From the sequence record PV340558: a stretch of DNA of 47,390 nucleotides, one strand, 5' to 3'. Below the pieces are notes generated by a model that searched no databases, had not been told where the DNA came from, and saw nothing but the letters and a program-made list of their open reading frames with translations. This document shows positions 16,798 through 17,285 of the stretch, piece after piece. Position numbers and translations under genes: made by a program. Positions within the stretch are counted from its first letter, which is position 1. Each line of letters starts with the position of its first letter. The stretch is from Escherichia phage PhiR30_1.

Positions 16798-17195
16798 ACA
16801 GAGTAACCGCGATTATCTCCGCTCTGGTTATCTGCATCATCGTCGGCCTGTCATGGGCTGTTAATCATTACCGTGATAACGCCATTACCTACAAAGCCCA
16901 GCGCGACAAAAATGCCAGAGAACTGAAGCTGGCGAACGCGGCAATTACTGACATGCAGATGCGTCAGCGTGATGTTGCTGCGCTCGATGCAAAATACACG
17001 AAGGAGTTAGCTGATGCGAAAGCTGAAAATGATGCTCTGCGTGATGATGTTGCCGCTGGTCGTCGTCGGTTGCACATCAAAGCAGTCTGTCAGTCAGTGC
17101 GTGAAGCCACCACCGCCTCCGGCGTGGATAATGCAGCCTCCCCCGACTGGCAGACACCGCTGAACGGGATTATTTCACCCTCAGAGAGAGGCTGA
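16794..17195 (+). CDS. rzpD: i-spanin Rz, apparently frameshifted near the C-terminus
   Basis: 133 aa; after the C5 tract at 17140-17144 the frame reads [16 protein letters not shown], which is the Rz1 C-terminus in K-12 as recalled. Confidence 0.6.
17014..17163 (+). pseudogene. rzoD: o-spanin Rz1 lipoprotein embedded in Rz, truncated by the same frameshift
   Basis: [20 protein letters not shown] lipobox then Pro-rich stretch; ends ...QPPPTGRHR* (49 aa) instead of the expected ...[16 protein letters not shown]. Confidence 0.55.
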
Positions 17196-17285
17196 TCACT
17201 ATGCAAAAACAACTGGAAGGAACCCAGAAGTATATTAATGAGCAGTGCAGATAGAGTTGCCCATATCGATGGGCAACTCATGCAA

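What the first reader, a model, noticed from the sequence alone, without database searches (positions are those of the whole stretch)
17014..17254. One-base loss in a C tract frameshifts both overlapping spanin genes
Seen: Rz (from 16794) ends at 17195 with ...[21 protein letters not shown], and the embedded Rz1 lipoprotein ORF (from 17014) ends early as ...[14 protein letters not shown] third frame from 17144 is open to 17254 and reads [36 protein letters not shown]. Established (recalled K-12 RzpD/RzoD): Rz should end ...[14 protein letters not shown]...EQCR and Rz1 ...[21 protein letters not shown] run of six C rather than the five at 17140-17144 would restore both. So both the inner- and outer-membrane spanin are altered by a single event in the overlap.
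Basis: partly seen in the sequence, partly recalled or inferred. Interest (0 to 1): 0.5.

Follow-up and report, generated by a model that had tools for sequence, protein, structure and literature searches.

The report
Probable homopolymer miscall breaking spanin genes
The window really does lack one C in a six-C run, which breaks both overlapping phage lysis (spanin) genes, but the pattern of differences from near-identical genomes suggests a sequencing or assembly miscall, not a biological event, and the finding is ordinary either way.

Summary
The sequence observation is correct. Window 17140-17144 is C5. Rz (16794..17195) becomes a 133-aa protein that ends in the Rz1 C-terminus, and Rz1 (17014..17163) stops at 49 aa. 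Adding one C restores a 153-aa Rz and a 60-aa Rz1, which differ from lambda's by 2 and 1 residues.

C5 is not the native arrangement. All four near-identical prophages (EH53, EH41, NCTC9113, A12) carry C6, as do about 99% of E. coli and IMG/VR copies.

The window has only four private differences from those four relatives across 47,390 bases. One is a substitution. The other three are one-base deletions, all in G/C runs of 5-6:
- the Rz/Rz1 C tract;
- two G tracts that split the 1131-aa tail fibre gene into three pieces.

The sister lineages carry about 124 substitutions and no indels.

The same tract is miscalled where the true sequence is known. Of 12 Nanopore lambda control-strand contigs found in unrelated genomes, 4 call it C5, C5, C4 or C7.

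My best reading is a consensus undercall in a long-read assembly (about 0.8). A genuine recent slippage mutation that abolishes spanin function is the rival (about 0.18). NCBI's pipeline already labels such C5 copies as 'frameshifted' rzpD pseudogenes. Interest is low.

The parts
17140..17144 (+). C5 homopolymer, which is C6 in all close relatives and in lambda. This is the site of the one-base difference that shifts both spanin frames.
16794..17195 (+). i-spanin gene Rz (rzpD type) as it stands: 133 aa, made of Rz residues 1-117 fused to the last 16 residues of the Rz1 frame. It lacks coiled-coil 2 and the C-terminal domain.
   Evidence: Domain limits are from PMC5295617.
17014..17163 (+). 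Embedded o-spanin gene Rz1 (rzoD type) as it stands: 49 aa. The signal peptide, lipobox (LVVVGC) and penta-proline stretch are kept. The frame is lost from residue 45, so W46 and everything after it are missing.
17144..17254 (+). Orphaned third-frame segment that encodes the normal Rz C-terminus ([11 protein letters not shown]...EQCR*).
16085..16300 (+). Phage-21-type holin (essD type), intact. First gene of the lysis cassette.
   Evidence: PF04971.
16300..16797 (+). Endolysin (rrrD type, phage lysozyme), intact. Second gene of the lysis cassette.
   Evidence: PF00959.
40444..40447 (+). G4 run that is G5 in all close relatives. This is the second private one-base deletion and the first break in the tail fibre gene.
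   Evidence: (no exact match in 3213 records).
42191..42195 (+). G5 run that is G6 in the four closest relatives. This is the third private one-base deletion and the second break in the tail fibre gene.
   Evidence: no exact match in 1146 records.
39047..42442 (+). Tail fibre gene. It is 1131 aa and intact in EH41, EH53, NCTC9113 and A12. Here it is split into three ORFs by the two G-run deletions, and restoring two G gives a protein identical to EH41's.

Best explanation
The C5 tract is most likely a consensus undercall of a true C6 homopolymer in the assembly the window comes from, probably a long-read assembly that was not fully polished. On this reading the strain carries normal lambda/phage-21-type Rz (153 aa) and Rz1 (60 aa), and the spanin frameshift is a property of the record, not of the phage.

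Shown here:
- the tract is one C shorter than in every close relative;
- the window's private changes are almost all -1 deletions in G/C runs;
- this exact tract is miscalled in long-read contigs of a DNA whose true sequence is known.

Inferred: that the same process produced the C5 in this window.
For: 1. All four near-identical prophages have C6. They are 99.85-99.98% identical over the whole 47,390 bases, sit at the same argU/DLP12 site, and come from strains EH53, EH41, NCTC9113 and A12.

2. The window has only 4 private differences from them. One is a substitution (5514). Three are one-base deletions in G/C runs: C6 to C5 at 17140, G5 to G4 at 40444, G6 to G5 at 42191. The sister lineages together carry about 124 substitutions and 0 indels. 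If the 3 indels were placed at random among the 128 changes, the chance that all three fall in the window's 4 is about 1e-5. It is about 0.01 if clustered substitutions are collapsed to roughly 10 events.

3. Each deletion breaks an ORF in a prophage that otherwise matches the fully intact EH53 and EH41 copies. Two hit the same gene. Restoring three bases gives proteins identical to EH41's.

None of the 54 A/T runs of 6 or more is changed. Systematic single-base G or C deletions in 4-6-nt runs, persisting at high coverage and sometimes several per gene, are described for PacBio RS II assemblies (PMC8574707).

5. Known-truth control. The Nanopore control strand is 3,447 nt of lambda (10.1101/2023.08.05.552089). 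Of 12 control-strand contigs found in unrelated species' genomes, the tract is called C5 twice, C4 once, C7 once and C6 eight times. Four of those eight are labelled as short-read polished. All 19 other lambda contaminant contigs have C6.

6. The exact 133-aa product occurs on at least 24 contigs. Eleven collection blocks hold it on contigs over 1 Mb. Three neighbouring loci compared with EH41 show 11-33 deletions and 4-11 insertions in 9-20 kb.

7. The two G-run deletions have no exact match in E. coli complete genomes (3213 and 1146 records have the site). The first also has none in IMG/VR or JGI metagenomes.
Against: - No reads are available, so the call cannot be checked directly.
- G/C homopolymers are also the natural hot spots for replication slippage. 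A frameshifting G7 allele of the 42191 tract is present in short-read-type Logan and ENA contigs.
- C5 copies of Rz occur in about 1% of E. coli complete genomes. Some are in apparently related genome pairs or triplets (98E11 and 2313; CREC-2, CRE444 and 488), which could be inherited real alleles.
- Nanopore control-strand contigs also show A/T-run errors, which the window lacks. So the platform cannot be named from the sequence alone.
- I could not identify the source assembly.
Confidence: 0.8

Rival explanations
1. A genuine, very recent replication-slippage deletion (C6 to C5) in the Rz/Rz1 overlap of an otherwise intact prophage, accompanied by two real slippage deletions in the tail fibre gene. 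It would abolish both spanin subunits. Rz would lose coiled-coil 2 and the C-terminal domain and carry 16 foreign residues. Rz1 would lose W46 and everything after it. On induction the holin and endolysin would still act, but outer-membrane disruption would fail, giving spherical cells, most clearly with added Mg2+ or without shear.
For: - The sequence as given.
- In lambda, every Rz nonsense mutation up to codon 152 is lysis-defective. Rz1 W46X is defective, while truncation at 55 is tolerated (PMC5295617). So both products here would be non-functional.
- Homopolymer length variants do exist in nature: a G7 allele at 42191 in Logan and ENA contigs.
- C5 Rz alleles occur in about 1% of genomes, some in related genomes.
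Against: - The window lineage has three indels to one substitution. Its sisters have 0 indels in about 124 changes.
- There are no A/T-run indels, although such runs are more numerous.
- No selective reason is evident, because losing the spanin does not spare the host from holin killing.
- The two tail fibre alleles are unique among more than 5,000 complete genomes.
- The same tract is demonstrably miscalled in long-read contigs of a known sequence.
Confidence: 0.18
2. C5 is a functional or regulated state. Either the shortened forms are a native alternative arrangement, or the tract acts as a reversible on/off switch or recoding site (ribosomal or transcriptional slippage on the C run) that restores some full-length Rz and Rz1.
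For: - The tract recurs as C5 in scattered genomes.
- A 152-aa Rz variant that leaves and then re-enters the Rz frame is on record on 115 contigs.
Against: - C6 is present in about 99% of copies and in every close relative.
- NCBI's pipeline treats C5 copies as frameshifted pseudogenes.
- Much of the recurrence is explained by control-strand and long-read artefacts.
- A five- or six-base C run is short for efficient slippage (my own knowledge).
- One slip cannot be tuned separately for two overlapping genes.
Confidence: 0.02

Closest known systems
Lambda Rz/Rz1 and the DLP12 / phage 21 RzpD/RzoD embedded two-component spanin
   Same: After adding one C, Rz matches lambda Rz at 151 of 153 residues and Rz1 matches at 59 of 60. 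Rz is identical to the RzpD annotated in EH41, EH53, NCTC9113 and A12. Rz1 has the same embedded position in the +1 frame. The genes sit in the same place, after a phage-21-type holin and lysozyme and before bor.
   Different: As recorded, both genes are out of frame from the shared C tract onward. Rz has 133 aa with a tail from the Rz1 frame, and Rz1 has 49 aa.
'Frameshifted' rzpD pseudogenes in RefSeq E. coli genomes
   Same: The same C5 allele with the same flanking 81-mer occurs in 40 of 4438 records that carry the region. NCBI's pipeline annotates it as a frameshifted pseudogene in RM8082 and 98E11.
   Different: Those copies lie in various prophages and strains. None is the near-identical prophage of this window, and all of its closest relatives have C6.
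Homopolymer-length errors in long-read bacterial assemblies
   Same: The errors are single-base deletions in G/C runs of 4-6 that fragment genes, sometimes several per gene (PMC8574707). Residual long-read errors are mostly homopolymer indels that cause frameshifts (PMC8812927). Near-identical genomes often differ in pseudogene count for technical reasons (PMC11017572). Nanopore lambda control-strand contigs miscall this very tract.
   Different: The platform and read support of the window's source are unknown, so membership in this class is inferred and not demonstrated.
Lambda PaPa stf frameshift (my own knowledge: Hendrix and Duda 1992)
   Same: It is a real single-base frameshift that splits the side tail fibre gene of a lambdoid phage, and the phage tolerates it in the laboratory. 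This shows such lesions can be genuine.
   Different: That lesion was established by comparison with Ur-lambda and by phenotype. Here there are two breaks in the tail fibre gene plus the spanin break, and no independent support.

Membership tests
Lambda-type embedded two-component spanin (Rz/Rz1) | The i-spanin has an N-terminal transmembrane domain and a periplasmic domain with two coiled coils and a C-terminal domain. It matches Pfam Phage_lysis over its full length. | tested here: not met
   As recorded, only profile positions 1-90 of 126 match, and the tail matches the Rz1 profile. Coiled-coil 2 (residues 121-150) and the C-terminal domain are absent. After restoring one C the feature is met: positions 1-126 of 126, E = 2.6e-54.
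Lambda-type embedded two-component spanin (Rz/Rz1) | The o-spanin is a small lipoprotein with a lipobox Cys, a proline-rich region and a C-terminal part that contacts Rz. It is encoded in the +1 frame inside Rz. | tested here: not met
   The lipobox LVVVGC, the penta-proline stretch and the embedded +1 position are present. The protein leaves frame after residue 44, so only Pfam Rz1 positions 1-25 of 41 match. After restoring one C the feature is met: positions 1-40 of 41, E = 2.9e-20.
Lambda-type embedded two-component spanin (Rz/Rz1) | Last genes of a late lysis cassette, after the holin and the endolysin. | tested here: met
   Holin at 16085..16300 (PF04971), lysozyme at 16300..16797 (PF00959), then Rz/Rz1, then bor on the opposite strand.
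Lambda-type embedded two-component spanin (Rz/Rz1) | Outer-membrane disruption at lysis, shown as a lysis defect in Mg2+ when the spanin is mutant. | not testable with these tools
   This needs induction and lysis curves. Lambda genetics predicts that both products as recorded would be non-functional (PMC5295617).
Assembly homopolymer-length artefact | The difference from near-identical genomes is a single-base length change inside a homopolymer. | tested here: met
   C6 to C5, G5 to G4 and G6 to G5 are the only indels against four relatives.
Assembly homopolymer-length artefact | An excess of such indels over substitutions compared with the natural divergence of sister genomes, with the indels disrupting ORFs that are otherwise conserved. 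| tested here: met
   3 indels to 1 substitution in the window lineage, against 0 indels in about 124 changes in the sisters. All three break intact genes.
Assembly homopolymer-length artefact | The same site is miscalled in independent long-read assemblies of a sequence whose truth is known. | tested here: met
   4 of 12 Nanopore lambda control-strand contigs call the tract C4, C5 or C7. All 19 other lambda contaminant contigs call C6.
Assembly homopolymer-length artefact | Accurate reads from the same strain disagree with the assembly at the site. | not testable with these tools
   The source assembly and its reads were not identified.

The most novel reading that the evidence does not exclude
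The C6 run shared by Rz and Rz1 is a genuine, recurrent and possibly reversible slippage site. A single event switches off both spanin subunits of lambdoid prophages. It segregates at about 1% in natural E. coli populations, and this window is a real example, so prophage lysis completion would vary in a contingency-locus-like way.
Probability: 0.03. Interest if true: 0.4.

Novelty: not a real feature. Interest (0 to 1): 0.07.

Why it matters
If the deletion were real, this otherwise complete argU-site lambdoid prophage would lack both spanin subunits and its side tail fibre. Induction would kill the cell but release phage poorly. That is ordinary prophage decay of a kind NCBI's pipeline already annotates.

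The more useful lesson is practical. The C6 run in the Rz/Rz1 overlap is a site where long-read consensus calling fails repeatedly. It fails even on the Nanopore lambda control strand, which contaminates many public assemblies and seeds protein databases with spurious 133-aa 'Rz' sequences. Frameshifted spanin calls at this tract should not be read as biology without read support.

Tried and rejected
- **Native arrangement rejected.** All close relatives, lambda, 79 of 80 listed IMG/VR contigs and about 99% of E. coli records have C6.
- **Source assembly not found.** I looked up window-specific broken products.
  - The 467-aa tail fibre fragment matched only a gene cut off by a contig end in an unrelated draft. 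That is a coincidence, not the same allele.
  - The 528-aa middle fragment is not on record.
  - The G4 44-mer is absent from IMG/VR and JGI metagenomes.
- **75-aa distal fragment.** It led to G7 and GAGGGG alleles of the 42191 tract in other phages, not to the window's G5.
- **Short-read polishing failure in repeats.** I considered that the errors survive because the regions are multi-copy (PMC8812927). This is not supported for this lineage, because EH53 and NCTC9113 carry a single copy of the Rz region.
- **152-aa re-framed Rz variant (P0003).** My guessed DNA for it had no full-length exact match in E. coli complete genomes.
- **Mutator or mutagen origin.** I considered it and rejected it, because only one private substitution accompanies the three indels.

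Full report
**1. The observation**

Window 17140-17144 is CCCCC, flanked by T and G. The Rz ORF from the ATG at 16794 stops at 17195. It has 133 aa and ends ...[21 protein letters not shown]. The embedded Rz1 ORF 17014..17163 has 49 aa and ends ...QPPPTGRHR. The third frame 17144..17254 encodes [11 protein letters not shown]...EQCR.

Inserting one C gives a 153-aa Rz. It differs from lambda Rz at 2 residues and is identical to the RzpD annotated in strain EH41. The same insertion gives a 60-aa Rz1 that differs from lambda Rz1 at 1 residue.

Pfam agrees. The Rz as recorded matches Phage_lysis positions 1-90 of 126 and then Rz1 positions 24-40. The Rz1 as recorded matches only positions 1-25 of 41. 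The repaired proteins match both profiles over their full length.

**2. Context**

The window is a complete lambdoid prophage next to tRNA-Arg, at the DLP12 site, followed by ompT and envY. Its parts are integrase, recombination genes, repressor region, O/P replication, nin region, Q, an intact porin, a phage-21-type holin and lysozyme, Rz/Rz1, bor, terminase, head, tail, J, lom, tail fibre and tfa.

Four complete E. coli genomes carry the same prophage at the same site. They align end to end over all 47,390 bases:

| Strain | Substitutions against the window |
|---|---|
| EH53 | 6 |
| EH41 | 16 |
| NCTC9113 | 41 |
| A12 | 70 |

In EH41, EH53 and NCTC9113 every prophage gene is annotated intact apart from two old partial remnants. 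A12 also has an internal stop in its tape-measure gene.

**3. C5 is not the native state**

- All four relatives, the more distant M8 prophage and lambda have C6.
- An 81-mer centred on the tract has an exact C5 match in 40 of 4438 E. coli records that carry the region. The rest of the best matches are one base longer.
- In IMG/VR, 79 of the 80 listed contigs have C6 and one has C5.
- NCBI's pipeline annotates C5 copies as 'frameshifted' rzpD pseudogenes.

**4. What distinguishes the window from its relatives**

Taking the four close relatives together, the window has exactly four private differences. One is an intergenic substitution at 5514. The other three are one-base deletions:

| Site | Change | Effect |
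|---|---|---|
| 17140 | C6 to C5 | shifts Rz and Rz1 |
| 40444 | G5 to G4 | first break in the tail fibre gene |
| 42191 | G6 to G5 | second break in the tail fibre gene |

The last two cut the 1131-aa tail fibre gene into three ORFs. Restoring two G gives a protein identical to EH41's.

The sister lineages carry about 124 substitutions and no indel. If the 3 indels were placed at random among the 128 changes, all three would fall in the window's 4 with probability about 1e-5. The figure is about 0.01 if clustered substitutions are collapsed to roughly ten events.

That includes 2 of the 5 runs of length 6 and the only C6 in the window. None of the 54 A/T runs of 6 or more is changed.

The two tail fibre alleles have no exact match among 3213 and 1146 E. 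coli records that carry those sites. The first is also absent from IMG/VR and JGI metagenomes.

**5. A control with known truth**

A scan of one genome per species for the tract with its flanks returned hits in Pseudomonas, Kitasatospora, Cohnella, Arcanobacterium, Flavobacterium and others. Alignment to lambda shows these are lambda contamination.

- One set consists of lambda genome pieces, including contigs of about 48.4 kb. All 19 of these non-control-strand contigs have C6.
- The other set of 12 contigs begins or ends exactly at lambda 45,042 or 48,488. Those are the ends of the 3,447-nt lambda insert of the Oxford Nanopore DNA control strand, which is 3,560 nt minus 65 and 48 artificial end bases (10.1101/2023.08.05.552089).

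The true sequence of the control strand is C6, yet the 12 contigs call the tract as follows:

| Call | Contigs |
|---|---|
| C5 | L147, L161 |
| C4 | L174 |
| C7 | L143 |
| C6 | eight contigs, four of them labelled as Polypolish-corrected |

In L161 the tract is one of only three errors in the 3.4 kb.

The protein cluster that holds the window's 133-aa product has 437 members. Several of the 40 I read are lambda-type 133-aa Rz sequences on ENA contigs of 2.6-3.6 kb, which is the same origin.

The exact 133-aa product of the window is on at least 24 contigs. Eleven collection blocks hold it on contigs over 1 Mb. The three shown loci that share this prophage and align to EH41 carry 11-33 deletions and 4-11 insertions in 9-20 kb.

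**6. Literature on the error type**

- Long-read-only bacterial assemblies keep residual errors that are mostly homopolymer indels and cause frameshifts (PMC8812927).
- PacBio RS II assemblies show systematic single-base G or C deletions in 4-6-nt runs even at 361x coverage. One essential gene was cut at three points (PMC8574707).
- Near-identical public genomes often differ in pseudogene count for technical reasons (PMC11017572).

The window's profile fits this description: only G/C runs, only deletions, and two in one gene.

**7. Consequences if the deletion were real**

Lambda genetics is clear (PMC5295617). Nonsense mutations at 34 positions across the Rz periplasmic domain are lysis-defective. 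Only residue 153 is dispensable. Coiled-coil 2 spans residues 121-150. Rz1 W46X is defective, while truncation at 55 is tolerated.

Here Rz leaves frame after residue 117 and Rz1 leaves frame after residue 44. Both would therefore be non-functional.

**8. Weighing the explanations**

For a real event:
- homopolymers are also natural slippage sites;
- a frameshifting G7 allele and an in-frame GAGGGG allele of the 42191 tract occur in Logan and ENA short contigs;
- some C5 Rz alleles sit in apparently related genomes.

Against it:
- the ratio of indels to substitutions in the window lineage;
- the restriction of changes to G/C runs;
- the uniqueness of the two tail fibre alleles;
- the lack of any selective rationale;
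- the demonstrated miscalling of this tract.

I put the artefact at about 0.8, a genuine recent mutation at about 0.18, and a functional or switch-like state at about 0.02. I could not identify the source assembly, so reads remain the decisive evidence.

**9. Verdict**

The sequence observation is confirmed. The interpretation as a biological double spanin knockout is only partly supported. The feature is either an assembly artefact or an ordinary prophage pseudogene of a kind that is already routinely annotated. Interest is low.

Noticed in passing
window 39047-42442 (sites 40444-40447 and 42191-42195): The 1131-aa tail fibre gene is split into three ORFs by two more one-base deletions in G runs (G5 to G4, G6 to G5). 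Both are private to the window, and neither shortened allele has an exact match in E. coli complete genomes.
   Followed up: yes
L178-L183 (Logan and ENA contigs), equivalent to window 42191-42196: Related tail fibre genes in short-read-type contigs carry G7 at this tract. G7 shifts the frame, and one such contig is seen in 20 or more samples. Others carry the in-frame GAGGGG. So this G tract varies in length in public data independently of the window.
   Followed up: partly
P0003 and P0010 (cluster); equivalent to window 17140-17195: A 152-aa Rz variant follows the Rz1 frame from the C tract (…[17 protein letters not shown]) and then returns to the Rz frame (RLITMQK…EQCR). It looks like a compensated -1/-2 double frameshift. 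P0003 is on record on 115 contigs (JGI, Logan, ENA). Rz1 would still be truncated. Whether it is real or an artefact is unknown.
   Followed up: partly
L143, L145, L147, L156, L161, L163, L172, L174 and other loci: The Nanopore lambda control strand (3,447 nt of lambda) is present in public assemblies of unrelated species. Some copies are labelled as plasmids (Arcanobacterium hippocoleae CP136411.1, Brevibacillus fluminis pContig2), and one is joined into a 4-Mb Ottowia contig. Lambda contigs of about 48.4 kb sit in Pseudomonas and Shewanella drafts.
   Followed up: yes
L001 (EH41) 29822-29864 and 30338-30395, equivalent to window 29728-29770 and 30244-30301: EH41 has two tight clusters of private substitutions in the tail assembly T and tape-measure genes. 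One cluster is all changes to T and the other all changes to G. They look like local errors in that record or a small recombination patch.
   Followed up: no
window 14414-15511 (- strand): An intact 365-aa NmpC-type porin gene lies between Q and the lysis cassette. From my own knowledge, the K-12 DLP12 copy is interrupted by IS5.
   Followed up: no
window 5514: This is the only private substitution of the window: A here, C in all four close relatives. It is intergenic, in the context TTTTT[A/C]GAAC.
   Followed up: no
L016 (GCA_021743425.1 contig ABEVVD010000076.1): A 7.7-kb draft contig ends exactly at the G tract that corresponds to window 40444. The cut gene therefore has the same 467-aa product as the window's first tail fibre fragment. 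This is a contig-end coincidence, not a shared allele.
   Followed up: yes
L004 (A12) 14914-17475: The tape-measure gene of the A12 copy of this prophage is annotated as a pseudogene with an internal stop.
   Followed up: no
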